A stretch of 64,000 nucleotides of DNA from assembly GCF_901765095.1 (NCBI RefSeq), contig NC_044034.1:62690339-62754338 (forward strand). Reading direction: 5' to 3'. Position 1 is the first letter of the stretch; each line of letters begins with the position of its first letter. Under the pieces are notes generated by a model, which saw nothing but the letters and a program-made list of their open reading frames with translations, did no database searches and was not told the origin of the DNA. This DNA comes from Microcaecilia unicolor (Eukaryota). Shown piece by piece: positions 6,840-63,452 of this stretch. Position numbers and translations under genes: made by a program.

Positions 6840-7040
6840 GTTCTGGAAATGGGACTTGATATACCGCCTGAGTTTTTTGCAACTACATTCAAAGCGGTTT
6901 ACATATATTCAGGTACTTATTTTGTACCAGGGGCAATAAGTGACTTGCCCAGAGTCACAAGGAGCTGCAGAGGAAAGCAACTCAGTTCCCCAGGATCAAG
7001 GTCCACTGCACTAAGTGGCTACTCCTCCACTCCACTTATA
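6840..7040 (-). mobile_element. tRNA-SINE copy of a related subfamily
   Basis: Contains ggggcaataagtgacttgcccagagtcacaaggagctgcag...ggatcaaggtccactgcactaagtggctactcc, the reverse complement of the SINE head and body. A near-identical copy lies at 9215-9400 and a short fragment at 28845-28925. Confidence 0.75.
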
Positions 7041-7254
7041 GCCCCTCTCCAAAACAGAAGTTCATCCTATGGTACCCAGTAACCCCCGCTCCCGAGGAAA
7101 GAAAAGCACGATGCCGTTAAAGTGAGTTCAGAATAAAACTAGGATCGGTTTCTGACTTCCGCAAACTCTTTAACAAGACATACCACAAAGATCAACAAAT
7201 GTGAACTCCTCCATATATATCCAGAATTGTCTTACAACATTTGCTTGTTATACT

Positions 7255-7415
7255 ACTATTATGCTTTATCATTATCATGTTTCCCAAGATCCTTCTGTAA
7301 CACTAAATGTCTATTTTCTTTTACATTTCCACCATTCATGATGTATTGTAAGCCACATTGAATCTGCAAAGAGGTGGGAAAATGTGGGATACAAATGCAA
7401 TAAATAAATATATGA
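7255..7415 (+). mobile_element. LINE/SINE 3'-tail fragment (+ orientation) ending in an (AAAT)n-type repeat
   Basis: ttgtaagccacattgaatctgcaaagaggtgggaaaatgtgggatacaaatgcaataaataaata matches the 3' UTR terminus of the intact LINE at 39655-39715. Confidence 0.65.
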
Positions 7416-7942: not shown

Positions 7943-9214
7943 GTAAGTGCACTGCAGACTGTATGGAAGGGCCCTGGCTTATACACTGCCGAGCTTAAGT
8001 CGTTGCAGTAGAAGAATTTGACAGCTCCTTTTGCACGCTTTGGTTAAGGAGGATGATGATGGCTGCCCCGGATCTCGCCGTGATGGAGTTGTTCAGGAGT
8101 CAGGAGAACATGCTGGGCTGCTTGTTAATGCCCGGAAGAGGGCGGGCACCAGGTGCTTGTTTCGTCTTCACCACTCCTCTCCGTATATACGTGAGGCTGC
8201 GGGAAGTAGTGCCGAGACTTGAGACTGTAAGGCGCTGATCTTCCTGTGCATTGTTTTCCATGCTTTACGTCCTGGGGAATTTCTTCCACCCAAATTTAAA
8301 AATGATCAAAATTGTGATTATGCTGCAAGTGGCTACTTAAGTTTGCTTAAGTTGTGTTTGCTGTAAGTTTTTTTTATATAATATTTTAAATATACACCAC
8401 TGAATTGAGTTGATTTATATCTAAACTAGCAATAAATATAAACTATTCCTGGGGAAATCTCGACCAATAGTTTATCCCAACACAGCATCAGCTATTTGAG
8501 AGCTTGGGGACTGGGTTAAAGATTGGTTCGCTTGGCTCCTCCTATTAAAAAAAGGTGTTCTGTCTCCCCTCCTTATAGAATTTGCACATACGTCTGCACT
8601 TACCCTGCAGAACTCTATACCTGGAGCAGGAAACAGAAAAGTAATCAACCCCCCACCCCGCTTAGGTTGTGTTTTCACTACCAAAGTGCACCAAGAAATG
8701 GGCCTTTCCTGCACATTAAGCCCATTTCTAGCATGGCTGACTAATGTTAGCATTAGGGCACAGCCATTTAGAAAAATTACCATGGAACCACTTACCACCT
8801 CCTGTTTAGGTGGTGTTAAGGACTCCCATATTATGGACATGCTAATCAGTTAGTGCTTCAGTAAAGTGCACGTACTAGCTGATTAGTACATCCACATCCG
8901 TTCTCTGCCCTTGACACAATCTCTCCAAAAATACAAAAAAAAAATAATTACCACATGTGCAGATGACAAAACTAACAATGCTTTAGCATGTCCTGCATTA
9001 GGCCATTTCTGCTGTATTGGGTGTGTGTTAGCACCTAACACAGCTTAGTAAAAGGACACCTATGTGATGGGGGAGGGGGAGACTGTAAGTTGGAGGGTTT
9101 GTGCCATAGAGGGGGAAAGAGTAAGTGGAGCAGGGGAACTGCAGAAAGGGGGAAGGTAGATTCTTAGGAACAGAAAGAACTACAGAAAGCAGAGAGTGTG
9201 CTGAATGAAAGGGA

Positions 9215-9400
9215 AATGGGACTTGATATAATGCCTTTCTGAGGTTTTTGCATCTACATTCAAAGCGGTTTACATATATTCAGGTACTTATTTTGTACCA
9301 GGGGCAATGGAGGGTTAAGTGACTTGCCCAGAGTCACAAGGAGCTGCAGTGGGAATTGAACTCAGTTCCCCAGGATCAAAGTCCACTGCACTGACCTTGG
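9215..9400 (-). mobile_element. tRNA-SINE copy
   Basis: Near-identical to 6845-7015 over about 170 bp (ggaaatgggacttgatata..gcctt...caaagcggtttacatatattcaggtacttattttgtaccaggggcaat...). Confidence 0.75.
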
Positions 9401-28200: not shown

Positions 28201-31200
28201 GTTAACCCACTGTGCTTATTCCTTACCCCGTATGCCCTGCAATTCTTTCACTTTAATATTATTATTAACATATAATGCACTCCACCCTTTTTTCCTACCA
28301 TGTCCTTCCTGTATAGATTATAGCCAGGTATAACTGTATCCCAGTCATGGTTCTCCATGAACCACTTCTCCGTGACAGCCACTAAATCTAAGTCTGCTTC
28401 TACCATTACAGCCTCTAGGTCTAGAAATTAGTTTCCCATACTATGGGCATTGGTATACAAAGCTCTCCAGATATTACTCTTTTTCCCCATTTCTATAAAG
28501 GCATTTGATGTCTTACATTCCTGAGGGTTATTAATGACTTTGGGGCTTTTCTCTCTCATCCATCAATTTTAGTTTAAATTCCTCTTTAGTACATTACCCA
28601 GTCTACTGAAGAGACTTTGTCCCTTCTTTGATAGATGGACACCATCTCTGCTCAGTAGCTCTTGAAAAATCATCCCATGGTGTAGGAAACTGAAGCGCTC
28701 ACGGTAGTACCATCTGCACAGCCACACATTCAGTTCTAGGATGCGAGCTGCCCTCATTTGGCCTTTACCCTCAACAGAAAGGATCAATGAGAACACCACC
28801 TGTACACCTGACTGCTTCACCCTCTGTCCCAGAGCCATGAAGGGAAAGGGAATGGGACTTGATATGTTGCCTTTCTGTGGTTTTTGCAACTACATTAAAA
28901 GCAGTTTACATAGTATATACATGAAGTCATATTCGATATGTTCCGTAGGATACCTAGCAGCATCATTTGTGCCAAAATGGATGAGCAGCATAGGATTGTG
29001 GTCTGTAGGCTTGATGAGTCTCGGCAGACAGTACACCTCCCTGGACATCATGCCTGGTCGGCAGATGGGTGCCTCTTAACTTATCTGTGGTTCCCTAATA
29101 TGTGCCAGTGTTTTCTAATGATTTTTTAAAATCATTTGATAAGCTAGAGAATTTGAGTGCATACAAGGTCTGGCTGAGGATGCTCTGAAGCCATCTTGGC
29201 AATGTGGATATAGATTTAGTTACTCAGACAAGATGTATGTATTTTTCCATATCTGTAATTTCATTCCAGTTTGTTTCATTTCCAAGTGTGGAAATTGTTA
29301 TACACACTATTTTTTTGGTGCACATTTTCCTCTCACATAGCTAAGTTTCACTAGCTTCCTGTTCAAGAAAGAATTTTATATAAATCGACTTGTCTGATGT
29401 TTCAGGTCGTTCATTGAGCTGCCTCAGAATTGTTGATAAATTTGATTGTTGCACCATTAACTCGATTTTTAGCTTGATTGCAGAGTTCTTTTATTCTTTG
29501 TTCTCTTACTTTTAAAGGTGTTTGGGGGTTTTTTTTTTTTTTTTTTAGATAGCAAGTACTATGTTTTCATCTCTGGTAATTCCTTTTTTGGAACTATTTT
29601 TTGTCTGGTGTTAGAACTGAAACAAATTATTATGTTTCTCAAAGAAAGCTGAAAACTTGTTTGATAGATTCTGATTTAAAAAAAATACTGTGTTAAAAAA
29701 AAGTGTTAATGTATTGTAGCTGTTCCTAATTTGTAAACCACATTAGACCCTAATTCAGGGGATATAACGGTTGATATTTTCAGATACACTGGACTCGTAT
29801 GTGGCATTTTTCTGATTGCATCTGAATTAACACATCGCTGCAATTTTTATTCCTTTTCCTAATGTGTGTTATACATAAACATGAAGTTATATAAGAGCAT
29901 TTTACCCCAGTAGAAATCTTATGTAACTTATTTTATCCACCAGCCCCCCCTTTTTTCCCCCAAAAAACAAATGATTCTCACTCTATACATTTTGGTGCTA
30001 GAGCGCCTAAGTAAGTACGCCTTCAGTTTCTTTTGCAAGTTTTATTGCAGATACCATTCAAGTCTAAATTTATTAGTTTTGATAGTATGTGTTTTATGCA
30101 GATGTGACATCTGTTTTTGTGCGCTGCTTCTCTGCACAGTATATTACAGTCCACATTTGATCTGCAGGAGCATAATGTATAACTGATTATTTTATAATTA
30201 AGATATTTTACAACAAAGAAGTAGTTTATGGACGTTTTATTGTGTATGAGATTATTGCTTATATGTAAGTGTGTGTGCTATTTATATTTTCAGGTTCACA
30301 AAATAGGAAGTATTTTAATTTTCTGTTCATCCGAATGTTTTAATACTTCATTTTTTCCAGTTGGATATATTGGATTACACTCATTGAAACCTTTGGAAAG
30401 ATAATTACAGCTGGTAAATGATTTTTTTTGTTGTTGTTGTCATCAGCAATCCTTATCTTTACATTTTTTTTAAATGTAGAACTTAGTACTTTCCAAGTTA
30501 TAATATAGCAGTGTTTCATTTAAGACTATTACGTATTCATCACACTATTTCTTGGTCTGATGAGTCTATAAACTTGTACTTTTGTATAACTTTTGTCTTT
30601 TAAAACATTGATGTTTTTGTTATGTTTTATTTTTGCATATGTTTTATTGTTCTTTTTATAGACCCCTGAAGCAGGAATTTGCTGAAATAGGACCTGTCGG
30701 GTGTCTTCATAAAAATTGATTAACATACTGATTCCTGAGGCCTATGTGCTTTTTCTTCATTATATGGTTCTGCTGCACCATTGAGTCCCTCTCCTTGGCT
30801 TGGCTTATTTTAAAAATTATCTATAGCCTCAGTAAAAGTTGTACATGTTATTAAAATAATTTGGGAAAGTACTACTACTACTACTATTTAGCATTTCTAT
30901 AGCGCTACAAGGCATACGCAGCGCTGAAAGCATATGGAAAGCAGGGAGGAATACACATGGAAATATGTTTCTTGGAATGATTTCCTCCATGTCTGCATTT
31001 GTCTCTGGGATTGATGCAGAAAGGCCCACAGTATAGCCATGCGTGGATGGCTGAGTGCACGGTATATTGTTTTTGTTTTTTTTTTTTACAATTTTTTTTA
31101 ACATGCTTAATTTCTCTGTAATCCTTGGTCAAATTCTGTGTCTTCTCACTGTTTTTTCGACTACACCAAATGCAGTTCTGTTATGTTTTTGGAGCGTCCT

Positions 31201-33467: not shown

Positions 33468-33925
33468 ATATCTAACCCCTTTTTAAACTCCGTCAAGCTA
33501 ACCGCCCGTACCACGTTCTCCGGCAATGAATTCCAGAGTCTAATTACACGTTGGGTGAAGAAAAATTTTCTCCGATTCGTTTTAAATTTACCACACTGTA
33601 GCTTCAACTCATGCCCTCTAGTCCTAGTATTTTTGGATAGCGTGAACAGTCGCTTCACATCCACCCGATCCATTCCACTCATTATTTTATACACTTCTAT
33701 CATATCTCCCCTCAGCCGTCTCTTCTCCAAGCTGAAAAGCCCTAGCCTTCTCAGCCTCTCTTCATAGGAAAGTCGTCCCATCCCCACTATCATTTTCGTC
33801 GCCCTTCGCTGTACCTTTTCCAATTCTACTATATCTTTTTTGAGATACGGAGACCAGTACTGAACACAATACTCCAGGTGCGGTCGCACCATGGAGCGAT
33901 ACACCTTTGACTTATACACCAAGCA
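33468..33925 (-). mobile_element. CR1-like LINE 3' fragment, the 5' part of a copy split by a nested insertion
   Basis: Same family as 4067-4620: the ORF segment reads MVYKSKVYRSMVRPHLEYCVQYWSPYLKKDIVELEKVQRRATKMIVGMGRLSYEERLRRLGLFSLEKRRLRGD.... The copy resumes at 32336-32555. Confidence 0.8.
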
Positions 33926-35387: not shown

Positions 35388-35975
35388 TACTACTACTACT
35401 ACTACTATTTAGCATTTCTATAGCGCTACAAGGCATACACAGCGCTGCACAAACATAGAAGAAAGACAGTTCCTGCTCAAAGAGCTTACAATCTAATAGA
35501 CAAAAAATAAATAAAGTAAGCAAATCAAATCAATTAATGTGAACGGGAAGGAAGAGAGGAGGGTAGGTGGAGGCGCGTGGTTACAAGTGGTTACGAGTCA
35601 AAAGCAATGTTAAAGAGGTGGGCTTTCAGTCTAGATTTAAAGGTGGCCAAGGATGGGGCAAGACGTAGGGGCTCAGGAAGTTTATTCCAGGCGTAGGGTG
35701 CAGCGAGACAGAAGGCGCGAAGTCTGGAGTTGGCAGTAGTGGAGAAGGGAACAGATAAGAAGGATTTATCCATGGAGCGGAGTGCACGGGAAGGGGTGTA
35801 GGGAAGGACGAGTGTGCAGAGATACTGGGGAGCAGCAGAGTGAATACATTTATAGGTTAGTAGAAGAAGTTTGAATAGGATGCGAAAACGGATAGGGAGC
35901 CAGTGAAGGGTCTTGAGGAGAGGGGTAGTATGAGTAAAGCGACCCCTCCGCCTCCCACTAGCCCCCCCCAAACTT
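35388..35975 (-). mobile_element. L2-like LINE 3' fragment ending in a (TAG/GTA)n microsatellite plus gtagcgctatagaaatgctaaata tail (tail at 35388-35430)
   Basis: ORF 35591-35971(-) reads LKTLHWLPIRFRILFKLLLLTYKCIHSAAPQYLCTLVLPYTPSRALRS.D..LSVP.....NSRLRAFCLAAPYAWNKLPEPLR, an L2 ORF2 C-terminal signature. The same tail recurs at 30872-30960, 43893-43965, 54683-54810 and 58328-58440. Confidence 0.75.
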
Positions 35976-37289: not shown

Positions 37290-39600
37290 TAATGTGGCAC
37301 AAATGATTGTTTTGTTAAAACCGGGGAGGAACCCAGAAGATCCAGGGTCTTACCGCCCCATCTCTGTTAAATTATACGCAAAAATTCTGGCAAATAGATT
37401 GTCACACGTCCTCCCAGACTTGATATACCACCCCCAGGTGGGTTTTGTTAAAGGAAGATCAGTGGCTAAAAATATTTGAGCAATTTTGGCATCATTGGAG
37501 GTGGTGGAACGGTCGAAGGCACAGTCTCTTTTAAGTTTTAACAATTTTTATTGATGATTCAACAATATTTACATAACCGATAATTTAACCGGGAAAGAGT
37601 ACATCACACTTGGGATACATTCAGCCATATCTTGTATCATCAATGATTTTATCCTTTTCTCCCACCCCCCCACCCCTCCCAATCTTATCATCATATCCAA
37701 CAGGCTTGCGTGTACATTGTAACATGAATAACAAAAATAGCACTGAATCTTCCGATTACGCTTCGCAAGCAATATTTATATTGACTTCTTCCAAATTCCT
37801 TCTCTTCCCCTTCCCCTCCCCCTGGCACAGTCTCTTTTAATTAGTTGATGCAGTGAAAGCCTTCGATCGGGTCACCTGGCAATTCATGTTTGCTGTGCTG
37901 AGGAGGGTAGGCATATAGGGATTTTTTAGTGAGGCGGTAAGAGTGCTGTAGGCTGACCCAAGAGCATTTGTCTAGGCGAATGGAGAACGATCTGCAGTGT
38001 TTCCGTCACCACTGCTTTTCGTGCTTTCATTAGATCCCCTTATCAGAGAAATTAGCTCCCACCCACATATTTCGGGAGTGACTGTCGGGAACTCCATTTT
38101 TAAAATCTCAGCGTTAACAGATGATTTGTTGCTTCATATTAGTAATCCTTGCACATCTTTGGCGGCAGTTCTGGAGTTTTTTCACGAATATGGAGATTTT
38201 GAGGGATTTAAATTAAATCTCTCCAAGTCGCTAGCACTAGCCTCTATGCTGCAGGTAAAGCAGGAATAGGAAGTGGAATTTCCACTTAAACGAGTCTTTT
38301 AGATATTTAGGCATTCAACTTACAATAAAAGTGTCGTCCCTATTTCATTTAAACATCTCACGTTTATTAGAACACACTGTAGAATGTCTCACCAGATGGA
38401 GACCTCTACCACTGTCCCTACATGGACAGATACATTTATTTCAAATGGTGGAATTCCCAAGATGGCTTTTTGTTCTACAAACGTTACCACTGTGCATTTT
38501 TAGAAAAGATTTAACCGTGTTATATAAACATCTACGCAAATTTATCTGGGGGGGAGGCAAATCCAGAATGCCCTTTCACCTGATGTTGGGGTCGTGGAGG
38601 GAGGGAGGCCTGGGGGTCCCTAATTTAAGACGTTATAATCAAGCCTGTTTGCTTCGGCACCTAAGAGACTGGTTTTTAGATAGACAGGACTATACTCCAA
38701 GGGACCTAGAAATGGCCTTCTTTCATCCATGTCACTTATATTACTTATTGAAAGCCCCCAGGAAGGAGATCCCGGCAGGCATGAATATGAGTATGTTGTT
38801 AAGGCCTTTGAGGGAAGTTTGGAAAGATTTGACTAAGTACTGGGGAATTTCACAGGTGGCCTCTAATCTATTGCCCATATGGGGCAACCCAAGCTTTCTT
38901 CCGGGCTCAGACAATCCGCTGTTTCGAAAATGGGAGGCTATGGGTATCATGAGATTGGAGCATGTCTTAGATGCAAAGGGTGCTTTGTTGTCCCTGGGAG
39001 CTTTAGGTATTGGGATCAACTGCAGCAAAATGTATGCCTATATCCAACTGCCCATTATGTTCGTATGATTAGTAGTGAGTTATTGGGGGCTGCGCATAGC
39101 AGACGTATGAGAGCCTTTTTTCATTCTATTCCGGTAGAGCGTTTGTCGGTCTCTGGATTATATAAAGCACTAACACTTTTGGCTCCTCTCAAAAATAAGG
39201 GATCAATTAGAGATCGGTGGGCTTTGGACATGGGATGCACGGATCTGACATTAGATTTTGATCAGCTTTCGGCAGCCATCCCAGCTCTAGCTGTTAATGC
39301 GGACTTACGTACATGTCAGTATTGTATATTGCACAGAGCATATCTCAGGAAGGCTCAAATTTTCAATATGGGGGGAGTGGTGGAGCCTCTGTGTTCCAAA
39401 TGTAGAACTCAAGTGGGGACTTTTTTTCACTCTCTCTGGGAATGCCCGGTGGTCCAAAAATTTGGGGGGGGGGGGGGGGATATATTTCATTTTCTGGGAA
39501 AGCTGTTGAGGGTCCCAATCCTGTGTGTCTCGCTTGGAGTATTACTAGATAAATATAGACTTTTTGCCCTGCGGGGTAGAGGTGCTCAACTCTTGGTTAG
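37290..39600 (+). mobile_element. L1-like LINE RT fragment with frameshifts
   Basis: Three + strand ORFs carry L1-type RT blocks. 37294-37479 reads ...YRPISVKLYAKILANRLSHVLPDLIYHPQVGFVKGRS. 37997-38269 reads ...ISALTDDLLL.... 38331-39068 reads ..FIWGGGKSRMPFHLMLGSWREGGLGVPNLRRYNQACLLRHL. Confidence 0.65.
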
Positions 39601-39984
39601 AAAGGCCTGTCTCCTGGGCAAACAACTTATTTTATTTATTTATTTATTTATTGTTTGTACTTGTATCCCACATTTTCCCACCTCTTTGCGGGCTCAGTGT
39701 GGCTTACAATAAGATATGAATAATGAGAATACAGTTGTTACAAATTGGTTATGGGTTACATTGTACAAGTTATGCGAGATAATCGAATTATCATTAGGAA
39801 TATCACAATGGGACATCAACAGGGAGAGTTTGGGAGGAGACAATGGGAAGCTTAAGGGCAGTCTTAAGACACATAGGCACATGGTGTACATATTCCTGTA
39901 AGTATATGTATGAGTAATGTGGAATTAGGGGGATGAGAGATCATAAGTGGATGTGTGATGCATTTATGTAAGTGAGTGTGGGCT

Positions 39985-42900
39985 CTATGTGTTTTGGTTT
40001 TTTCCGTAAATTGTCTCAAATAGATGGGTCTTCAGTAATCTGTGGAAGGATGCTTGTTCGTGGATCGCTCTTAAGTTGCATGGCAGTGAGTTCCAACGTT
40101 GCGTGCTCGTGTGAGAAAAGGTTGACGCGTGTAGCGTCTTGTATTTCACGCCCTTGAAAGTAGGGAAATGGAGGTTGAGGTATGTTCGGGAAGATCTCCT
40201 AGCATTTCTGGGTGGTAGGTCAATCAACTCGGACATGTAGGCTGGGGCTTCGCCGTGAATGATCTTGTGGACTAGTGTGCATACCTTAAAGGTGATGCGT
40301 TCCTTCAGCGGAAGCCAGTGTAGTTTCTCTCGTAGTGGTGTTGCCCTTTCATATTTTGGTTTACCGAAGATGAGTCTGGCTGCTGTGTTCTGGGCTGTTT
40401 GAAGTTTCCTCAGTGTTTGCTCTTTGCAGCCTGCGTATAATGAGTTGCAGTAATCCAGATGGCTGAGGACGAGGGATTGCACTAGGCTACGAAAGACGAA
40501 TCTTGGGAAGAGTGGTCTTATCCTTTTCAGTTTCCACATGCAGTAGAACATCTTCTTAGTTGTGTTGTTTGCATGGGTTTCAAGTGTTATGTGGCGGTCG
40601 ATAGTGACTCTAAGAATTTTTAGCGTTTCTGAGATTGGAAGGTTTAGGTTTGGTGTATTTATCGCGTTGAATTCGTTGGTGTTGTATTGGGAGGTGAGTA
40701 CCAGGCATTGAGTTTTTTCTGCATTTAATTTCAGACGGAATGTGTCTGCCCATGTGTTCATGATGTTTAGGCTTTGATTGATTTCGTTGGAGATTTCTTT
40801 GATGTCTTGTTTGAAAGGGATATATATTGTCACATCATCAGCGTATATATGTGGATTGAGGTTATGGTTTGATAGGAGTTTTGCTAGAGGGATCATCATT
40901 AGGTTGAAAATAGTTGGTGAGAGGGGTGATCCTTGTGGGACTCCACATTCAGGTATCCATGCCTTGGACGTGGTTGAGTGTGATGTGACTTGATACGAGC
41001 GCATGGTTAGGAACCCCTTGAGCCAGCTTAGGACATTTCCTCCAATGCCGAAGTATTCAAGTATGTGTAGTAGGATTTCGTGGTCGACCATGTCGAAGGC
41101 GCTTGACATGTCAAATTGTAGGAGGAGTATATTGTTCCCGGTTGCTATTATTTGTTTAAATTTGGTCATAAGGGTGACTAGTACTGTTTCTGTGCTATGG
41201 TTCGACCGGAATCCGGATTGGGCATCATGCAGTATTGAGTGTTTGTTTAGATAGTTTGTGAGTTGTTTGGTTACCATCCCTTCAGTTAACTTAGTTATCA
41301 GTGGTATGGATGCTACTGGTCTGTAGTTGGTAATTTCGCTCAAGTTTTTCTTTGTATCCTTAGGAATTGGGGTGAGTAGGATTTTTCCTTTTTCTTTTGG
41401 GAAGAGTCCGTTTTGTAGCATGTAATTTACATGCTTCGTTAGGTCAATTGTGAATTGTTGAGGGGCTGATTTCATGAGGCTGTTTGGGCATGCGTCTAGT
41501 TTGCAGTTGGATTTGGCATATTTTTTGAGAGTATTAGAGATGAGGTCTTCTGGTATTGGTTCGAACTCGGTCCAGGTTCTGTCTGCTGGGTGTGCTCCTT
41601 CTTCTGGGTCCAGACAGTCTAGAAGAGTGGCGTATTCTATGGGACTGGTGGGTATTTTGTGTCGTAGTAGTATGATTTTTTCTTTGAAGTACTTCGCAAG
41701 GCTGTCGACGTCTGGTATGTTTTTACCGTTATTTGTAACTGGTGTGGTATCTAGCAGTTTGTTCACAAGGCTGAAGAGTTTGTGTGTGTCTTTGTAATTT
41801 GGTCCTATTATTGTTTTGTAGTGTTGTCTTTTTGTCTGTTTTATGGTGTATTTGTATTTTCTCCGAAGTCGTTTCCAGTCGTTTCGTGTTTGTTCGTCTT
41901 TCTTTTTGTTCCAAGCTCGTTCTAGTTTCCTGACTTGTGTTTTAAGTTTTTTCAGCTCTTCGGTGAACCATGGGTTTGCTTTTTTCCTGTGTGATGTTCT
42001 GGTTTGGGTTGGGGCGATTTTGTCTAATGTTGTTGTACATAGCTCATCCCATTCTTGGAGGAATTGGATGGTGTCAGCGTTTGTTGTCCATTCGTACTGG
42101 TAGATCTGTTGCCAGAATGTTGTGGAGTCTATTTTTCCTCTCGTTGTGTATGTTGTTCGCTCGGGTTTGTTGGTCGTGTTTAAGTGTGTTTTTCGCCAGC
42201 AGAGAGTGACATTTGCTTTATGGTGGTCTGACCATAGTGTAGGTGTCCAACTTGTGTCCGTGATCATGATATTTGAATCCGATTCGAATTTATTCGTTAT
42301 GATATCTAGTGTGTGTCCTTTTTCGTGAGTCGGTTGCATGTAAGGTGCTTGCAGATCCCAAAGTTTTAGGAATTCTTTGAACTCTCGTGTGCTTGGTGAG
42401 GTGTCATCTTCTAGGTGTAAGTTGATGTCTCCTAGTATGAGGATGTTTGAGGAAGATACGCAGGAATTCGAGACGAAATCCATGAGTTGTGTTTGGGAGT
42501 CTTGCCATTTCCCTGGAGGTCTGTAGAATAGGATTGTGTTGAGGTGGCCTGTTAGATTTGGATGGTTGATTCTTGTCGATGCAATTTTGAGATGTGGGGA
42601 GGTAGATTCACCCGTGATTGTGATGGTGAATTCAGGTTTGTAAATTATAGCTATTCCGCCTCCTCTTTTTATTCCATTCCTTGTCCAGTGGGTGATTTTG
42701 TATTCTGGTGGGCATATTTCTAAGATGGCTGGATCTGTAGGACTATGGAGCCAGGTTTCTGTGATAAATAGGAGGTCTAGTTTATCTGCGACGATCCAGT
42801 CTAGTATGTCTACTGAGTTCCTTACTGCTGATCTTGCATTGATGTATCCTAGATGAATTGAGCGATATGGTTCCAAGGGAGGGTTTGACGTGTTTATTTT

Positions 42901-43437
42901 TATTAGTTGTCTGTTCCTTCGGTGATTGAATTTGTTGTTGTTGTTGTTTTCCTCATTTTGTCGATTGTGCTCGTTTCCGGAGGCTATTCCTCTTGATTGG
43001 TTATTGTGTCTTTGGTTTGGTGGGTTGTCAAAAGGTTGTGCATATGATTGGTGGGTTGGTGGTGAGTGATTATGGGTGCTGTTTGGGGTGTTCATTGTGT
43101 CTGTGTGAGTGTTGTATGATTTGTAAGTAATTGGGTTGTTGTTGTCTGTGTTGTTTTGGTTTGTTAAGTTGTTCATAGGTTGTGCGTGGAGTTGGTGTGT
43201 TGTGGTTGGCTTGTTATCGATGCTCTTCAAGGTGGGCATTGTGTGTGTGTGAGTGCTGTGTAATTTGTGGGTTGTGGTGTTATTGTTGTCTGGGTCGTAG
43301 GTAATGTTTGCGTGAGAGAGTAGGGTGATGCAGAAAAAGGTTAGGAGTGTTTTACTGGTATTCATATCAGTATTTGAGGCGCTGTAGCAAGCAATCTGCA
43401 AGTTTATATTCAAAGCGAAGCAGGCCTGTAGTTGCAT
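39985..43437 (-). CDS. LINE ORF2-like polyprotein: endonuclease plus reverse transcriptase, 1150 aa, uninterrupted. The N-terminal ~170 aa are T/N/H-rich low complexity and may lie upstream of the true initiator.
   Basis: ORF-track translation. EN and RT motifs as listed for the parent element. No stops or frameshifts over 3.4 kb, which points to a young and potentially active copy. Confidence 0.8.
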   Translation of the reverse strand: MQLQACFALNINLQIACYSASNTDMNTSKTLLTFFCITLLSHANITYDPDNNNTTTHKLHSTHTHTMPTLKSIDNKPTTTHQLHAQPMNNLTNQNNTDNNNPITYKSYNTHTDTMNTPNSTHNHSPPTHQSYAQPFDNPPNQRHNNQSRGIASGNEHNRQNEENNNNNKFNHRRNRQLIKINTSNPPLEPYRSIHLGYINARSAVRNSVDILDWIVADKLDLLFITETWLHSPTDPAILEICPPEYKITHWTRNGIKRGGGIAIIYKPEFTITITGESTSPHLKIASTRINHPNLTGHLNTILFYRPPGKWQDSQTQLMDFVSNSCVSSSNILILGDINLHLEDDTSPSTREFKEFLKLWDLQAPYMQPTHEKGHTLDIITNKFESDSNIMITDTSWTPTLWSDHHKANVTLCWRKTHLNTTNKPERTTYTTRGKIDSTTFWQQIYQYEWTTNADTIQFLQEWDELCTTTLDKIAPTQTRTSHRKKANPWFTEELKKLKTQVRKLERAWNKKKDEQTRNDWKRLRRKYKYTIKQTKRQHYKTIIGPNYKDTHKLFSLVNKLLDTTPVTNNGKNIPDVDSLAKYFKEKIILLRHKIPTSPIEYATLLDCLDPEEGAHPADRTWTEFEPIPEDLISNTLKKYAKSNCKLDACPNSLMKSAPQQFTIDLTKHVNYMLQNGLFPKEKGKILLTPIPKDTKKNLSEITNYRPVASIPLITKLTEGMVTKQLTNYLNKHSILHDAQSGFRSNHSTETVLVTLMTKFKQIIATGNNILLLQFDMSSAFDMVDHEILLHILEYFGIGGNVLSWLKGFLTMRSYQVTSHSTTSKAWIPECGVPQGSPLSPTIFNLMMIPLAKLLSNHNLNPHIYADDVTIYIPFKQDIKEISNEINQSLNIMNTWADTFRLKLNAEKTQCLVLTSQYNTNEFNAINTPNLNLPISETLKILRVTIDRHITLETHANNTTKKMFYCMWKLKRIRPLFPRFVFRSLVQSLVLSHLDYCNSLYAGCKEQTLRKLQTAQNTAARLIFGKPKYERATPLREKLHWLPLKERITFKVCTLVHKIIHGEAPAYMSELIDLPPRNARRSSRTYLNLHFPTFKGVKYKTLHASTFSHTSTQRWNSLPCNLRAIHEQASFHRLLKTHLFETIYGKNQNT

Positions 43438-43570
43438 TTAAGCTTGGCAGCATTTCATGCTAGGTTAATCAGAGCAAGCACGCCTGTATTTACAATTAAA
43501 GCATAACAGTGAGCGTTATGTGTTGATCCAATTATCTCACTGTGCAAGGTGGCTCATTTGTCTGGAGGTC

Positions 43571-43722
43571 TTAAGCAAGCAGAGTGAGACAATTACATCT
43601 AGCATAAGCTGTAGCGGTGTAAGCAAGCAGAGTGAGATAATTACATTTAGCATGAAGCTGTAGCGGTGTAAGCAAGCAGAGTGAGATAATTACATTTAGC
43701 ATAAGGCTGTAGCGGTGTAAGT
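43571..43722. repeat. Tandem array of about three 50-bp monomers (gtaagcaagcagagtgagataattacatttagcataaggctgtagcggt) in the LINE 5' UTR
   Basis: Three consecutive near-identical units read directly in the sequence, lying 5' of the LINE ORF start in sense orientation. Confidence 0.7.
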
Positions 43723-44666
43723 TACAATTTTTCTTTGTTTTACAGTTGAACCAGGCTGTTCACTTGCCTTGTATTTAGATCGAGGCAAGGCAATAGCAAT
43801 TAAATCATTATAGAAGATAGTGTTATTTGGCTAAGCATCTTAGTTGCCTTCTATGTACAATTTTTAAGATAATTAAAGCATCTGCATTAAATACTACTAC
43901 TACTACTTAACATTCCCAGAGCGCTACCGGGGTTATGCAGCGCTGCACAAAATAAACAAAGAAGGACATAACAGAAAGTGATGCTACTGTGGCATAGCAG
44001 CTCTTTACCTTCTATTTAGTGCTAGCATAGCAGAGTATAAGCTGTAAGTCCTAGCCGACATCGGTGCATGCAGTGAGGCAAAGCAAGCAGTTAATTGTAG
44101 TAGTTTTTTGGTAGTTTTTGGTTTTTTTTTTTTGGCCTTCACCACGTGGTCCTGGGTTCCTATGTGGTTCGTCTACAATTCTGCAGCGCTCGGAGTGCAA
44201 GGGGTAGGCGCACCTCACGCCGCCTCGGAAATCCGTGGGTGCCTCGGTTGGGGGGGGACTAGTGATGTGGACTAGTGATCAACCACCAGAGTTTTGGCAT
44301 TGGTGCAGTCAGCTACATGAGCTTTTGTTATCGAAGCGCAGGTTGGTGGGAATGTCCCTCAAAAAGAAGAAACAGTTCTTGAAGATCTGGGACCCGTACA
44401 TTCAATATGTATCGCCTAGGGCACGCGGTTTTATTATGAATTCTCTTTCGGGATGATCCGGGGGGGGGGGGGGGGGGAGGAGGAAGAGGACCTCTGTGTT
44501 TTTTTGTTTTGGTTTGTTTTTTTGTGTGTGTTACTGCGAGGGGGGAGGGAGTTAGACTGATCTTTTACCAGTAAAGTTGGGGTGCTTTCGTGGGTGGGAC
44601 TTACAAGAGGGAAAGATGGGGAAGGGTCAGGGTGGGAAAGAAAATATGAAAAGGTGGATGATATAC

Positions 44667-46258
<1,592 letters not shown>

Positions 46259-46895
46259 TAAGTATTAGCCTGCACATATTTGAACAAAGTAGGCCTGCAC
46301 TTGGAACTCTACAGAAATTGCTGAAATATTGTTCTATTCATTGTGTTTAATATATCACCAGTAAAAACCGTTGAAACGTGATACTTGTGAGTAAGATAGT
46401 GGTGGAATAGTTTGTGCCCTGGTTTCTAGCAAATTGGGACATTTTTCAAACTTCTGTAATTATTTTACCCTAGTAGGTTACTTTTTTTGCAGCTACCTTA
46501 TTGGCAAAGACTCATTTGTAAGCAAATTTAGCTACAACACCGCAATGATAATAGTCAATGATGACTATTATTTTTAAAAAGACAAACATTTTTTATCATT
46601 TTCTCTAACACAGGGATCACCGTTCATTATTTTTTCATCTTCATTTTAACCATTGAGCTTAACATTTACTTTTGAAAACAGGATAATTTCTAATTTAATC
46701 ATACCTATAGCCACACAATTGTCAGAACTTGTTAGGAAATGTACAAGGTATTCCCTGTTTTTGTTCCATTAACACTGTGAAGTCCTATTCCCTGCACACC
46801 ATGTGAAACATCTCACCATTGTAATTGCCTTTGCTAACCTTTACTATCTGGTTCCAGTATTCACTATCAGCTTCAGACATCTTCTCTTTTTACAG

Positions 46896-52139: not shown

Positions 52140-52900
52140 AATGCAAGTAATGAAACAGTAGGCTAGGAAAGCGAATAGAATGTTGGGTATTATTAGGAAA
52201 GATATGGAAAACAGGTGTGAGGATGGTATAATGCCGTTGTATCGCTCCATGGTGCGACCGCACCTTGAGTATTGTGTTCAGTTCTGGTCGCCGCATCTCA
52301 AGAAAGATATAGTAGAATTAGAAAAGGTGCAGCGAAGGGCGACTAAATTGATAGCGGGGATGGGACGACTTCCCTATGAAGAAAGACTAAGGAGGCTAGG
52401 GCTTTTCAGCTTGGAGAAGAGACGGCTGAGGGGAGATATGATAGAGGTATATAAAATAATGAGTGGAATGGAACAGGTGGATGTGAAGCGTCTGTTCACG
52501 CTTTCCAAAAATACTAGGATTAGGGGGCATGCGATGAAAGTACAGGGTAGTAATTTTAAAACAAATCGGAGAAAATATTTCTTCACCCAACACATAATTA
52601 AACTCTGGAATTCGTTGCCGGAGAACGTGGTGAAGGCGGTTAGCTTGGCAGAGTTTAAAAAGGGGTTAGACGGTTTCCTACAGTCCATAAACCACTACTA
52701 AATGGACTTGGGAAAAATCCACAATTCCAGGAATAACATGTATAGAATGTTTGTACGTTTGGGAAGCCTCCACTTTCCTAACAACTTACTTTCTGGTCAC
52801 CAAAAAGATAGATGGATTCTGCTTCATTCTAGACCTCAGAGCTCTGAACAGTATCTAGCCAAAAATATGTTTCAGGATGGTTTCCCTGCACACCCAACTC
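52140..52900 (+). mobile_element. CR1-like LINE 3' fragment (RT C-terminus plus 3' UTR)
   Basis: ORF 52180-52701 reads ...YRSMVRPHLEYCVQFWSPHLKKDIVELEKVQRRATKLIAGMGRLPYEERLRRLGLFSLEKRRLRGDMIEVYKIMSGMEQVD..., the canonical CR1 C-terminal motif. Confidence 0.8.
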
Positions 52901-53789: not shown

Positions 53790-54300
53790 TTTGTGCCTCC
53801 TGTTTAGGATGTGGAGATGGGCCACCTCCCATGGGATGGTGCTCAGAGCCACTTATCTGGTAGGAATAAAAAACAATCGTCTGGCGGACAGACTGAGCCA
53901 GCTCATGCAACCACACGAGTGGTCTTTAAAAATGGGTATAATCTACTCTAGTTTAGCACAACATATGATCCATCACCTTCAAATTATTCAGAATATTGCC
54001 GCCCGTATTCTCTCAGTTGTTAGTAGATTCAACCATATCACTGTCTTGCTTATTCAACAGCACTGGTTACCCATTTCTTCCCACATCCACTTCAAGGTTC
54101 TTATGCTTACTCATAAGGCTATCCATACTGACACTCCTCTTCATTTGGTCTTGCTGGTTCAACTATACTCGCCATCTAGGCTTCTCTGCTCAGCCAATGA
54201 CTTACGTTTCCGTATCCTGTCGGTACATTAGACCCATTACCAAACGACAAGGATTTGATCTTTTTTTCTGTATTTCACCTTCACTATCTATCAAAAATGT
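53790..54300 (+). mobile_element. L2-like LINE 3' fragment, + orientation
   Basis: ORF 53791-54231 reads ...HHLQIIQNIAARILSVVSRFNHITVLLIQQHWLPISSHIHFKVLMLTHKAIH.. (L2 C-terminus: LQ..QN.AAR....R..H..P.L..LHWLP...RI.FK.L). Confidence 0.65.
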
Positions 54301-58327: not shown

Positions 58328-58765
58328 TTACTACTACTACTACTTAACATTTCTAGAGCGCTACTAGGGTTACGCAGCGCTATACAAATTGACAAAGAAG
58401 GACGGTCCCTGCTCAAAGGAGCTTACAATCTAAAGGACGAAATGTCAAGTTGGGGTAGTCTAGATTTCCTGAGTAGAGGTGTAGTGGTTAAGTGCCGAAG
58501 GTGACATTGAAGAGGTGGGCTTTGAGCAAGGATTTGAAGATGGGCAGGGAGGGGGCCTGGCGTATGGGCTCAGGGAGTTTGTTCCAAGCATGGGGTGAGG
58601 CGAGACAGAAAGGGCGGAGCCTGGAGTTGGCGGTGGTGGAGAAGGGTACTGAAAGGAGGGATTTGTCTTGAGAGCGGAGGTTACGGGTAGGGACGTAAGG
58701 GGAGATGAGGGTAGAGAGGTATTTGGATGCACAGTCGTGCAGTCTCTTAAGGTTCTCTTTCAATT
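58328..58765 (-). mobile_element. L2-like LINE 3' fragment (same family as 35388-35975)
   Basis: ORF 58488-58763(-) reads ...LISPYVPTRNLRSQDKSLLSVPFSTTANSRLRPFCLASPHAWNKLPEPIRQAPSL.IFKSLLKAHLF, plus the tactactactactta...gcgctac tail at 58328-58390. Confidence 0.75.
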
Positions 58766-61932: not shown

Positions 61933-62789
61933 GTATGTATTCATGCCTTCTTGCTTTTGTTCTGTATGTTATGGCTCATTGCCTGCCTCCTGCACAGCAG
62001 TATACAATGGACAGGGTCAAAGTACACAGCAAAACAATCCAAAAAAGAAGCACAAAAGGCTCTCAAGAAATGGTACAAGTGTGCTTTATTTATGACCCAA
62101 CACAGGGCATGTTTCGGAGTAAAACAATGCCTGCCTCAGGGGTCAGCTCTAAAATCAACTTAACACAAAACACATGCGCTGTTACTCAAATTGTTGTGTT
62201 CAGTATATTGTCAGTCCGCTCTGGAAACTGAGAAGCCCAAACTTAATGCGGAGCAAACCGCCACGGAAATTTGCGTCTTGCCTTGTGTTCATAGTGTGTG
62301 TGATGATGGAAGACTGGATTATCTCTTGCATTTACAAAGTGACCTTTTTACAAGGGATCAGAATTTTGGGTGGTCATTCTTATCTGACCTTTTTTTTCCT
62401 TTATTACTTTGGTGTCCATAACAAGGAATTGTTCAGGAAATAGTTTAAAAATAAAATTGTAATTAATGTCTTACTTTTTCCCTGCACTGATAGTTTTTAT
62501 TAAATTCCTCCCACCTGCTACAGATGCAAAACAGGTGAAAAGCATTGCTGAGTTATGTCCCCATGCCTCTGCTTCCTCCACCTTCTCTAGAATATTCTAG
62601 AATCTAATCTTTGTGTTTGTTTTTGAGAGCTCATTAGACTGAATCTCTCTCTTGGACTGAGGTAAAACTGCTGTGATACTCTGCCTGAATTTGGTCTCTG
62701 TACTGTTCTCGGCACTTTCTTCTTTTCTTTCTGTTCATTTCCTCCATTTTCCAAAGTTTTATTGTTCACATTATTTTTATTTTTGTTAC

Positions 62790-62935
62790 ATTTGTACCCC
62801 GCGCTTTCCCACTCATGGCAGGTTCAATGCGGCTTACATATTGTATACAGGTACTTATTTGTACCTGGGGCAATGGAGAGTTAAGTGACTTGCCCAGAGT
62901 CACAAGGGGCTGCCTGTGCCTAGGCAACTAAGAGA
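62790..62935 (-). mobile_element. tRNA-SINE copy, 3' portion
   Basis: Reverse complement of the 63330-63440 SINE body and tail (...gggcaagtcacttaactctccattgcccc...). Confidence 0.75.
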
Positions 62936-63257: not shown

Positions 63258-63452
63258 GAGTGGAGGAGTGGCCTAGTGGTTAGGGTGGTGGACTTTGGTC
63301 CTGGGGAACTGAGGAACTGAGTTCGATTCCCGGCACAGGCAGCTCCTTGTGACTCTGGGCAAGTCACTTAACCCTCCATTGCCCCATGTAAGCCGCATTG
63401 AGCCTGCCATGAGTGGGAAAGCGCGGGGTACAAATGTAACAAAAATAAAAAA
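63258..63452 (+). mobile_element. tRNA-derived SINE (A box TGGCCTAGTGG, B box GTTCGATTCC) whose 3' tail is homologous to the L2/CR1-like LINE 3' UTR
   Basis: The head ggagtggcctagtggttagggtggtggactttggtcctggggaactgaggaactgagttcgattcccggcacaggcagc carries Pol III A/B boxes. The tail ...tgtaagccgcattgagcctgccatgagtgggaaagcgcggggtacaaatgtaacaaaaataaaaa aligns with the LINE 3' end tgtaagccacactgagcccgcaaagaggtgggaaaatgtgggatacaagtacaaacaataaataaa (reverse complement of 39655-39715). Confidence 0.8.

What the first reader, a model, noticed from the sequence alone, without database searches (positions are those of the whole stretch)
39630..43740. Full-length L2/CR1-type LINE with an uninterrupted 1150-aa EN+RT ORF, and a tRNA-SINE partner sharing its 3' tail
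A 3.45-kb ORF without stops, encoding a complete APE endonuclease and an RT with an intact FDMSSAFD/YADD core, is unusual for L2/CR1-type elements, which are mostly ancient truncated fragments. The last ~60 nt of its 3' UTR are clearly homologous to the 3' tail of the tRNA-derived SINE present at 63258-63452 and elsewhere, and they also appear at 7255-7415. That is the classic signature of a LINE mobilising a SINE in trans. The element also has about 50-bp tandem monomers in its 5' UTR, reminiscent of promoter monomer arrays in mouse L1.
Basis: partly seen in the sequence, partly recalled or inferred. Interest (0 to 1): 0.7.

Follow-up and report, generated by a model that had tools for sequence, protein, structure and literature searches.

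The report
Intact young L2-type LINE with SINE partner
This is an ordinary but well-preserved jumping gene (an L2-type LINE retrotransposon with an unbroken 1150-aa gene) in a vertebrate genome, and a nearby MIR-like SINE carries a related 3' end, which is the textbook sign of a LINE whose enzyme also copies a parasitic SINE.

Summary
A stop-free 1150-aa ORF lies on the minus strand at 39985-43437. It encodes an APE-type endonuclease and a reverse transcriptase, and every residue that is invariant across 15 distant relatives is present. Three 49-bp monomers (43572-43721) lie upstream. Downstream is a 355-nt 3' UTR that ends in a three-tier hairpin followed by (TAAA)n.

An open ORF of this length implies under about 0.6-2.5% neutral decay since insertion, so the copy is young.

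The SINE at 63258-63452 is a MIR/CORE-type SINE, with pol III A and B boxes and 24 of 26 identity to a published MIR core. Its tail is truly homologous to the LINE tail: 38 of 48 nt before the A-rich end, with an alignment score 13 SD above shuffles. The hairpin is kept.

Three caveats:
- The LINE-type and SINE-type tails differ at fixed positions.
- Two of the four SINE copies in the window carry a different tail.
- 7150-7413 is a 5'-truncated LINE copy, not a SINE.

Tail architecture, single-ORF layout, C-terminal domain and MIR partner all point to the L2 clade. This matches the known stringent LINE/SINE systems (eel UnaL2/UnaSINE1, zebrafish ZfL2-2, L2/MIR). It is a new member of a known kind, of low to moderate interest. 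The 5' boundary (43722-43891) and current activity remain unresolved.

The parts
39985..43437 (-). Single uninterrupted LINE ORF, 1150 aa (N-terminal extension + endonuclease + reverse transcriptase + C-terminal domain)
   Evidence: All 50 columns that are invariant in an alignment with 15 relatives of 24-31% identity are intact in this copy.
42853..43437 (-). N-terminal extension of about 195 aa, low-complexity and rich in T/N/H/P. It is kept open but poorly conserved. It contains a tandem 144-bp (48-aa) duplication at 43011-43298.
   Evidence: Duplication is 72% identical at nt level and 49% at aa level. 0 of 20,000 shuffles stay open. Homologs cover only about 82-86% of the query.
42223..42828 (-). 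APE-type endonuclease domain (aa about 204-405; motifs INARS, FITETW, GGGIA, YRPP, GDINLH, SDHH)
   Evidence: Pfam Exo_endo_phos, E 1.9e-8. Invariant E227, D337, N339, D378, S403-D404-H405 are present.
40699..41355 (-). Reverse transcriptase domain (aa 695-913; NYRPV, QSGFR, FDMSSAFD, GVPQGSPLSP, YADD, LNAEKT)
   Evidence: Pfam RVT_1, E 9.3e-34. Invariant D776, D867, D868 are present. The best solved-structure matches are the RT domains of R2 and L1 ORF2p.
40006..40458 (-). C-terminal domain (LDYCNSLYAG...LQTAQNTAARLI...LHWLP...RITFK...WNSLP...LLKTHLF), shared with all relatives
   Evidence: Alignment.
39630..39984 (-). 3' UTR (355 nt)
39661..39709 (-). 3' tail hairpin of three stacked helices: TTGTA/TACAA, CCACA/TGTGG, CCCGC/GTGGG
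   Evidence: RNA fold -19.6 kcal/mol, z = -3.4. 93% of cells are paired across the four tails, against 28-52% when the partner is slid.
39631..39652 (-). Terminal (TAAA)n microsatellite, the presumed site where reverse transcription starts
   Evidence: The role is inferred from UnaL2 (PMC1636434).
43572..43721 (-). Three tandem 49-bp monomers in the 5' UTR
   Evidence: Tandem Repeats Finder: 3.1 copies, 95% matches, score 268.
43438..43891 (-). Largest possible 5' UTR. The true 5' end lies between 43722 and 43891.
   Evidence: An unrelated L2-like tail (family B), with four other copies in the window, ends at 43892. No target-site duplication of 7 nt or more was found.
63258..63452 (+). MIR/CORE-type SINE, subfamily 1, with a complete head. 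A box TGGCCTAGTGG at 63269-63279, B box AGTTCGATTCC at 63320-63330, CORE at 63348-63373, tail hairpin at 63387-63433. Flanked by a 9/10-nt target-site duplication, ACA(A)GTAGGT.
62774..62920 (-). 5'-truncated copy of SINE subfamily 1, with the same tail (47 of 48 identical in the hairpin)
   Evidence: 117 of 121 aligned bases are identical to the 63258 copy, plus one 27-nt indel.
7150..7413 (+). 5'-truncated, decayed copy of a sister LINE subfamily. It keeps the end of the ORF (..SDFRKLFNKTYHKDQQM*), a 3' UTR and a LINE-type tail.
   Evidence: 87% identity over the last 70 nt. 45 of 49 identical in the hairpin. Sequence read.
6845..7032 (-). SINE subfamily 2: same head and CORE, but a different tail (TGTAAACCGCTTTGAATGTAG...GGCGGTATATCAAGTCCCATTTCC)
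9212..9386 (-). Second copy of SINE subfamily 2

Best explanation
The region holds a young, apparently full-length non-LTR retrotransposon of the L2 clade. It is the single-ORF type, like zebrafish ZfL2-2.

Shown here:
- One 1150-aa ORF encodes an N-terminal low-complexity extension, an APE-type endonuclease, a reverse transcriptase and the C-terminal domain shared by its relatives.
- The 3' UTR ends in a three-tier hairpin followed by (TAAA)n.
- One subfamily of a MIR/CORE-type SINE in the same window carries a homologous tail with the same hairpin.

Inferred from the experimentally studied L2-clade elements UnaL2 and ZfL2:
- The element is transcribed from its 5' region, which carries the three 49-bp monomers.
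- Its protein binds the 3' hairpin of its own RNA ('stringent' recognition).
- The endonuclease nicks the target DNA.
- Reverse transcription is primed on the terminal repeat (target-primed reverse transcription). This often stops early, leaving 5'-truncated copies such as 7150-7413.
- SINE RNAs, made by RNA polymerase III from the A/B-box head, present a similar hairpin and are copied in trans by the protein of this LINE lineage. That may be this copy's own subfamily or a close sister.
For: - ORF and domains. All family-invariant catalytic residues are kept.
- Youth: in simulation the ORF stays open with P < 5% once neutral divergence passes about 0.6% (indels at 10% of substitutions) or about 2.5% (substitutions only). 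ORF CpG observed/expected is 0.70, against 0.39 for the window.
- Tail: the hairpin folds with z = -3.4. Relatives of 26-32% protein identity (L001, L002, L003) have the same plan, a stem-loop followed by an A-rich stretch and a short tandem repeat.
- SINE/LINE tail homology: score 44 against 15.9 +/- 2.1. The motifs occur only in these four elements. 93% of hairpin cells are paired, with one A-U to G-C compensatory pair.
- The SINE is a CORE/MIR type: 24 of 26 identity to the MIR core oligo printed in PMC6344866, found three times where 0 are expected.
- The SINE is young: the two subfamily-1 copies are 117/121 identical, one has a target-site duplication, and CpGs are retained in the tail.
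- A 5'-truncated LINE copy is present in the window.
- Literature: the roles of the L2 stem-loop and terminal repeat, and trans-mobilisation of SINEs (PMC1636434, PMC4176376).
Against: - No second full-length copy is available, so the 5' end, family copy number and divergence are unknown.
- No target-site duplication was found for the LINE.
- The tails are only 79% identical, and the differences are fixed by type. The terminal repeats also differ: (TAAA)n in the LINE, A5TA5-6 in the SINE.
- The single compensatory pair involves two CpG-type transitions and comes from only four sequences. It is not statistically significant (90 of 500 shuffles reach it).
- L2 clade membership could not be tested by RT phylogeny, because no clade-labelled references were reachable.
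- There is no expression or activity data.
- In RT motif E this copy has LRV where every relative aligned has a G at that position (G-to-R; effect unknown).
Confidence: 0.75

Rival explanations
1. The LINE is real and intact but is not the SINE's driver. SINE subfamily 1 is mobilised by a different, unsampled L2 subfamily whose tail carries the CpG-containing version (CCGC...GCGCGGGG). This LINE is a sister lineage that shares only ancestral tail homology.
For: The two LINE-type tails (39661-39709 and 7347-7394) agree with each other at 45 of 49 positions. The two SINE tails agree at 47 of 48. LINE against SINE is only 37-38 of 48, and the differences are fixed by type. The terminal repeats differ. 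SINE subfamily 2 shows that this SINE family swaps tails between LINE partners.
Against: No LINE with a closer tail exists in the 64 kb. All three helices are preserved in the SINE tail. PMC1636434 reports that a ZfL2-2 construct carrying the UnaL2 3' tail retrotransposes, which suggests some tolerance to tail sequence differences within the L2 clade.
Confidence: 0.35
2. The copy is a recently inserted but dead element. It may be inactivated by missense changes, lack a working promoter (5'-truncated or chimeric 5' end), or be silenced. In that case the open ORF reflects only its young age.
For: The 5' end is undefined, and foreign sequence sits directly upstream within the same interrupted L1 site. 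There is a G-to-R change in RT motif E relative to all aligned relatives. 5' UTR CpG observed/expected is 0.39, the same as the genome background.
Against: All invariant residues are intact. The ORF and even the weakly constrained N-terminal 200 codons are open. The monomers are 94-95% identical to each other.
Confidence: 0.3
3. The element belongs to the CR1 clade in the strict sense (or to Rex1 or another clade of the CR1 group), not to L2.
For: The Pfam domains and the hairpin-plus-microsatellite tail are common to the whole CR1 group. No labelled phylogeny could be run.
Against: The partner SINE is MIR/CORE type. From my own knowledge, the mammalian partner of MIR is L2. The single-ORF layout matches ZfL2-2 (PMC4176376).
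Confidence: 0.1
4. The ORF is a domesticated host gene derived from a LINE and kept open by host selection, not a mobile element.
For: An ORF of this length is open, and no closer relative than 32% identity exists in the protein database.
Against: It retains a complete mobile-element anatomy: a 5' repeat region, a 3' hairpin and a microsatellite. It is nested inside another repeat. A truncated sister copy is in the same window. It has the strong A-rich strand bias typical of LINEs. It has no introns.
Confidence: 0.02

Closest known systems
Eel UnaL2 with UnaSINE1/2, and zebrafish ZfL2-2 (L2 clade, 'stringent-type' LINEs; PMC1636434, PMC4176376)
   Same: - A single EN+RT ORF with no ORF1, as in ZfL2-2.
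- A conserved 3' tail of about 50-60 nt, made of a stem-loop with internal interruptions followed by a short tandem repeat.
- A partner tRNA-related SINE carrying a homologous tail.
- 5'-truncated copies.
   Different: - Different tail sequence and terminal unit: (TAAA)n here, (TGTAA)n in UnaL2.
- A low-complexity N-terminal extension of about 195 aa with an internal 48-aa duplication.
- 49-bp monomers in the 5' UTR.
- LINE/SINE tail identity is only about 79%.
- No activity data.
L2 / MIR (CORE-SINE) pair of mammals, monotremes and tuatara (PMC6344866, PMC7116210)
   Same: The SINE has the three-part MIR layout described in PMC6344866: a tRNA-related head, a core region (24 of 26 identical to the published human MIR core oligo) and a LINE-like tail. 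The LINE has the same C-terminal domain type (memory-based lead). Recent activity of L2 and MIR in a non-mammal is already reported for tuatara.
   Different: - Here both elements look young, with an intact ORF and SINE copies about 97% alike. Human copies are ancient.
- The tail shared by this LINE and SINE subfamily 1 differs from the classical L2/MIR tail. The classical type appears to be represented in this window by the separate 'family B' tails (the resemblance is recalled from memory).
Chicken/turtle CR1 with its partner SINEs (CR1 clade)
   Same: APE-EN + RT polyprotein, a 3' hairpin plus microsatellite instead of poly-A, frequent 5' truncation, and stringent recognition with partner SINEs (PMC4176376 lists LINE-SINE pairs in the CR1 clade).
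   Different: The C-terminal domain is not of the CR1 type (24% against 41%, memory-typed references). The terminal repeat is a 4-mer rather than the 8-mer I recall for avian CR1. The partner is a MIR-type SINE.
Monomeric 5' UTR promoters of mouse L1 (A, Tf, Gf monomers)
   Same: Tandem direct repeats at the 5' end of a LINE, upstream of the ORF.
   Different: The monomers here are 49 bp x 3, against about 200 bp in mouse L1 (my own knowledge). There is no sequence relation, the LINE clade is different, and promoter function is untested.

Membership tests
L2-clade LINE (non-LTR retrotransposon, CR1 group) | A single polyprotein with an N-terminal APE-type endonuclease followed by a reverse transcriptase, with catalytic residues intact | tested here: met
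   Pfam Exo_endo_phos and RVT_1. Invariant E227, D337, N339, D378, S403-D404-H405, D776 and D867-D868 are present.
L2-clade LINE (non-LTR retrotransposon, CR1 group) | RT-domain phylogeny places it within L2 rather than CR1, Rex1, RTE and so on | not testable with these tools
   No clade-labelled reference sequences could be reached. The best hits are unnamed or misnamed, at 32% identity or less. The only lead is memory-typed C-terminal domain references: 41% (E 3e-35) for L2 type, 24% (E 1e-3) for CR1 type.
L2-clade LINE (non-LTR retrotransposon, CR1 group) | [quoted passage not shown] | tested here: met
   Hairpin -19.6 kcal/mol, z = -3.4. (TAAA)5.5 at the end. Three distant relatives have the same plan.
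L2-clade LINE (non-LTR retrotransposon, CR1 group) | Dispersed, mostly 5'-truncated copies of the same family | tested here: inconclusive
   One truncated sister copy lies at 7150-7413. Five other fragments in the window belong to more distant L2-like families, at 26-35% aa identity. Genome-wide data were not available.
Stringent-type LINE-SINE partnership (Ohshima/Okada model) | The SINE 3' tail is homologous to the LINE 3' tail beyond the terminal simple repeat | tested here: met
   38 of 48 identical. Score 44 against 15.9 +/- 2.1, maximum 26, in 1000 shuffles. The motifs are confined to these elements.
Stringent-type LINE-SINE partnership (Ohshima/Okada model) | The recognition hairpin is preserved in both partners | tested here: met
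   93% of cells paired, against 28-52% in slid controls. There is one compensatory pair, but from only four sequences, and 90 of 500 shuffles do as well.
Stringent-type LINE-SINE partnership (Ohshima/Okada model) | The same terminal repeat unit in LINE and SINE | tested here: inconclusive
   The LINE ends in (TAAA)n. The SINE copies end in ACAAAAATAAAAA(A). The truncated LINE copy ends in (AAAT)2-3 ATAT.
Stringent-type LINE-SINE partnership (Ohshima/Okada model) | The SINE tail is mobilised in trans by the LINE protein | not testable with these tools
   This needs a retrotransposition assay of the kind described in PMC1636434 and PMC4176376.
CORE-SINE / MIR superfamily | The conserved CORE domain | tested here: met
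   The 26-mer from the published MIR core oligo (PMC6344866) matches three SINE copies with 2-3 mismatches, where 0 are expected.
CORE-SINE / MIR superfamily | A tRNA-derived head with pol III A and B boxes | tested here: inconclusive
   A box TGGCCTAGTGG fits TRGCNNAGTGG exactly, and B box AGTTCGATTCC has one mismatch to GGTTCGANNCC (read). ARAGORN and Rfam do not call a tRNA. The head aligns to a memory-typed MIR consensus, score 65 against 20 +/- 3.
CR1 clade in the strict sense | A CR1-type C-terminal domain and an octamer terminal repeat | tested here: not met
   24% identity (E 1e-3) to a memory-typed CR1 C-terminal domain, against 41% for the L2 type. The terminal repeat is a 4-mer. Both reference features are recalled from memory, so the result is weak.
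Monomer-array LINE promoter (mouse-L1-like) | Tandem monomers at the 5' end that drive transcription | tested here: inconclusive
   The array is present, 49 bp x 3.1. Promoter activity cannot be tested here, and a literature search found no report of such arrays in L2.

The most novel reading that the evidence does not exclude
This copy is a currently retrotransposition-competent L2 master element that uses a short-monomer (49-bp) 5' promoter array and is actively driving a living MIR-type SINE. If so, it would be a natural, clonable L2/MIR pair in which the partnership that shaped mammalian genomes, but is extinct there, could be tested directly.

A secondary unexplained point: the LINE lies in one interrupted L1 site together with two upstream pieces in the same orientation, each ending in a tail-like feature. 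This could be a tripartite chimera made by template switching of an L2-type RT.
Probability: 0.3. Interest if true: 0.4.

Novelty: new member of a known kind. Interest (0 to 1): 0.2.

Why it matters
If the element is active, it offers a clonable L2 with a cognate MIR-like SINE tail. That would allow the hairpin recognition rules to be tested, including which of the 10 tail differences the protein tolerates. It would also allow a test of whether short 5' monomers act as an L2 promoter. For genome annotation, it supplies a full-length reference for a LINE family with no relative above 32% protein identity in the protein database searched. It also explains several repeat fragments in the window. 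Otherwise it is an ordinary component of a repeat-rich vertebrate genome.

Tried and rejected
- **Exact-protein lookup of the ORF:** not on record.
- **Homology searches with the ORF and with a 16-sequence profile:** no relative above 32% identity and no clade-labelled names, so no phylogenetic placement was possible.
- **Identifying the organism through the neighbouring Tc1 transposase:** the best hits are 82-87% (Xenopus tropicalis, fishes), so the source species is not in the database.
- **Metagenome-wide scan for the tail motif, to collect more copies:** three hits, all chance matches inside bacterial contigs.
- **Rfam and ARAGORN on the window:** nothing found, so the SINE head is too diverged to be called a tRNA.
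- **MAFFT/RNAalifold on tails of distant relatives:** the alignment was too poor and gave no consensus structure. I used single-sequence folds instead.
- **Suspected homology between the sequence upstream of the family-B tail (43968-44110) and the LINE 5' UTR monomers:** not significant, as 41 of 1000 shuffles score as high. Rejected.
- **Search for a LINE target-site duplication of 7 nt or more:** none found.
- **DNA for the Ambystoma relative P0007:** not retrievable because the file is too large.
- **Literature search for monomer arrays in L2/CR1:** nothing relevant.


Full report
**Observation**

The window contains, on the minus strand at 39985..43437, an ORF of 1150 codons with no stop. 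It begins at an ATG that directly follows an in-frame TAA. Pfam finds an Exo_endo_phos (APE-type endonuclease) domain at aa 204-378 and an RVT_1 reverse transcriptase at aa 695-913. Tandem Repeats Finder confirms 3.1 copies of a 49-bp unit (95% matches) at 43572-43721, upstream of the ATG, and a (TTTA)5.5 run at 39631-39652, which is the element's 3' end read as (TAAA)n on its own strand. The description is therefore accurate. Only the 5' limit (43740) is arbitrary.

**Anatomy and integrity**

I aligned the ORF with 15 relatives of 24-31% identity. It keeps every one of the 50 invariant columns. These include the endonuclease residues (E227, D337, N339, D378, S403-D404-H405) and the RT catalytic aspartates (D776, D867-D868). 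One difference stands out: an R replaces the usual G in RT motif E (LRV for LGV).

The relatives cover only about 82-86% of the query. The first 195 or so residues are a low-complexity extension rich in T, N, H and P. It contains a tandem 48-aa duplication (43011-43298) that is 72% identical at nucleotide level and 49% at amino-acid level. This part is nevertheless kept open: 0 of 20,000 composition-matched shuffles are stop-free, and the other two frames carry 13 and 8 stops.

There is no separate ORF1. The C-terminal 230 or so residues (LDYCNSL...LQ..QN.AAR...LHWLP..RI.FK...WNSLP...LLKTHLF) are shared with all relatives.

**Age**

I simulated neutral decay of this exact ORF. It stays open with P < 5% once divergence exceeds about 0.6% if indels occur at 10% of the substitution rate, or about 2.5% with substitutions alone. 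CpG observed/expected in the ORF is 0.70, against 0.39 for the whole window. Both results indicate a recent insertion. They do not prove that the copy is active.

**Boundaries and context**

The 3' junction lies at 39629/39630.

On the 5' side, 43892-43962 is the last 70 or so nt of a different L2-like tail, which I call family B. It ends in (TAG)n and has four other copies in the window. The LINE 5' end must therefore lie between 43722 and 43891. No flanking duplication of 7 nt or more was found.

The element sits inside an L1-like ORF2 C-terminal region on the + strand. That reading frame stops at 39629 (...RKACLLGKQL) and resumes near 44258 (..VMWTSDQPPEFWHW...). The gap encloses the LINE and also about 365 bp of unrelated upstream sequence in the same orientation: a unique GC-rich piece ending in an A-rich tract, a further ~135 nt of unique sequence, and then the family-B tail. 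I could not decide whether this arrived in one event (5' transduction or a template-switch chimera) or by serial insertions.

**The 3' tail and the SINE**

The last 50 or so nt before the microsatellite fold into three stacked helices, TTGTA/TACAA, CCACA/TGTGG and CCCGC/GTGGG, at -19.6 kcal/mol (z = -3.4).

The SINE at 63258-63452 aligns to the LINE 3' UTR over exactly this segment. With the A-rich ends removed there are 38 of 48 identities. The score is 44, against 15.9 +/- 2.1 (maximum 26) for 1000 shuffles. Two tail motifs, each searched with up to 3 mismatches, occur only at four places in 64 kb, where 0.15 and 0.00 are expected:
- the LINE itself;
- 7347-7394;
- the two SINE copies, at 62792-62838 and 63387-63433.

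Across the four tails, 93% of hairpin cells are paired, against 28-52% when the partner is slid. There is one A-U to G-C compensatory pair separating the LINE type from the SINE type. With four sequences, and with both changes being CpG-type transitions, this is suggestive rather than significant (90 of 500 shuffles do as well).

The tails are not interchangeable copies, however:
- The LINE-type tails agree with each other at 45 of 49 positions.
- The SINE-type tails agree with each other at 47 of 48.
- LINE against SINE is 37-38 of 48, with differences fixed by type.
- The terminal repeats differ.

**What the other loci are**

7150-7413 is not a SINE. It carries the end of a LINE ORF (..SDFRKLFNKTYHKDQQM*, compare ..SFHRLLKTHLFETIY..*), a diverged 3' UTR and a LINE-type tail that is 87% identical over the last 70 nt. 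It is a 5'-truncated copy of a sister subfamily, which is the expected product of abortive target-primed reverse transcription.

**The SINE**

It has an exact pol III A box (TGGCCTAGTGG) and a B box with one mismatch (AGTTCGATTCC). ARAGORN and Rfam do not call a tRNA.

Its centre matches the MIR core oligo printed in PMC6344866 (TGTGACCTTGGGCAAGTCACTTAACC) with 2-3 mismatches in three copies, where 0 are expected. It is therefore a CORE/MIR-type SINE with the head-core-LINE-tail layout that paper describes.

There are four copies in the window, in two subfamilies:
- **Subfamily 1** (63258-63452 and 62774-62920, the latter 5'-truncated) has the tail related to this LINE. The two copies are 117/121 identical apart from a 27-nt indel. 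One has a 9/10-nt target-site duplication. CpGs in the tail are intact. All this is consistent with recent activity.
- **Subfamily 2** (6845-7032 and 9212-9386, plus a tail-only fragment near 28850-28915) shares the head and core but has a different tail.

Tail exchange between LINE partners is the hallmark of CORE-SINEs, by my recollection of Gilbert and Labuda (cited as reference 10 in PMC7116210).

**Clade**

No labelled reference proteins were reachable, so RT phylogeny could not be run. Four indirect lines point to L2 rather than CR1 in the strict sense:
1. Three relatives of 26-32% identity (L001, L002, L003) show the same tail plan: a stem-loop containing ..GC.TTGAG/TTAGAG.., then an A-rich stretch and a short tandem repeat. 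PMC1636434 states that all L2-clade members have such a tail.
2. The single-ORF layout matches ZfL2-2 (PMC4176376).
3. The partner SINE is of the MIR type.
4. The C-terminal domain aligns at 41% (E 3e-35) to an L2-type sequence and at 24% (E 1e-3) to a CR1-type sequence.

**Mechanism**

The anatomy is shown. The steps that follow are inferred from UnaL2 and ZfL2 experiments (PMC1636434, PMC4176376):
1. The element is transcribed from the 5' region.
2. The polyprotein is translated.
3. The protein binds the 3' hairpin of its own RNA.
4. The endonuclease nicks the target.
5. Reverse transcription is primed on the terminal repeat, with template slippage.
6. Reverse transcription often ends prematurely, giving 5'-truncated copies.
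7. SINE RNAs that present a similar hairpin are copied in trans.

The promoter role of the 49-bp monomers rests only on analogy with mouse L1.

**Rivals**

- The SINE may be driven by an unsampled sister L2 subfamily with the exact CpG-containing tail (about 0.35, and compatible with the main picture).
- The copy may be young but dead (about 0.3).
- It may belong to CR1 or another clade of the CR1 group (about 0.1).
- A domesticated host gene is very unlikely (about 0.02).

**Novelty and interest**

Intact, active L2 elements and their SINE partners are established in eel and zebrafish. L2 elements that 'may still be active', together with recently active MIRs, are reported in tuatara (PMC7116210). 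The finding is therefore a clean new member of a known kind. Its family-specific features are the 49-bp 5' monomers, the repeated low-complexity N-terminus, and a tail distinct from the classical L2/MIR tail. None of these changes the category. Interest is low to moderate.

**Dead ends**

- Exact-protein lookup.
- Organism identification through the Tc1 transposase.
- Metagenome scan for more copies, which gave three chance bacterial hits.
- RNAalifold on distant tails.
- A suspected similarity between 43968-44110 and the 5' UTR, which was not significant.
- Literature search for L2 monomer arrays.

Noticed in passing
window 44664-46260: A Tc1/Sleeping-Beauty-type DNA transposon that looks intact. 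Its 202-bp terminal inverted repeats are 99% identical. Each carries a repeated 21-bp site at its two ends (the IR/DR layout). The 350-aa transposase ORF (44991-46043) has HTH_SB, HTH_Tnp_Tc3_2 and DDE_3 domains. The best database relatives are only about 82% identical (Xenopus tropicalis, fishes)..
   Followed up: partly
window 39630-44257 (flanks 38331-39629 and about 44258-44420, + strand): An L1-like ORF2 C-terminus is split by one block. The block holds the LINE plus about 365 bp upstream in the same orientation: a unique GC-rich piece of about 120 nt ending in an A-rich tract (44100-44257), about 135 nt of unique sequence, and then the last 70 or so nt of a family-B L2 tail (43892-43962) that abuts the LINE 5' region. 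This could be a one-step chimera or 5' transduction, or serial insertions at one spot. Not resolved.
   Followed up: partly
window 6845-7032 (-), 9212-9386 (-), about 28850-28915 (-): A second subfamily of the same MIR/CORE-type SINE with a different 3' tail (TGTAAACCGCTTTGAATGTAG...GGCGGTATATCAAGTCCCATTTCC). This implies a second LINE partner that was not seen in the window.
   Followed up: partly
window 43892-43962, 58329-58403, 54685-54757, 35394-35466, 30873-30926 (all - strand): Five copies of another L2-like 3' tail, 'family B'..TTAGATTGTAAGCTCTTTGAGCAGGGACTGTC..GCAGCGCTGCGTA..GTAGCGCT..(TAG)n. They are 81-87% alike. Two of them follow decayed ORF C-termini (35600-35938 and 58494-58748). 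From memory, the tail resembles the classical mammalian L2 3' end.
   Followed up: partly
window 27409-29051 (- strand): The 5' half of another LINE. It has a GDSL-esterase-like ORF1 remnant (Pfam Lipase_GDSL_2, E 7e-5, below the curated cut-off) interrupted by the SINE-tail fragment. Next comes an endonuclease domain in which a unit of about 25 aa (about 75 bp), GDFTMPDVDWGIPAAGLSRRKGILDS, is repeated about 7 times in frame.
   Followed up: partly
window 39464-39479, 44250-44257, 44460-44477 (+ strand): Poly-G runs of 16, 8 and 18 bases inside or at the edge of the L1-like element. One replaces part of the conserved zinc-knuckle region (..CPVVQKFGGGGGD..). Their origin is unknown.
   Followed up: no
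window 33500-33922 (-), 52237-52680 (+), 53941-54180 (+): Further decayed fragments encoding L2-type C-terminal domains (26-35% aa identity to the LINE ORF). The window is dense in old, 5'-truncated L2-like copies, and the element studied here is the only full-length one.
   Followed up: no
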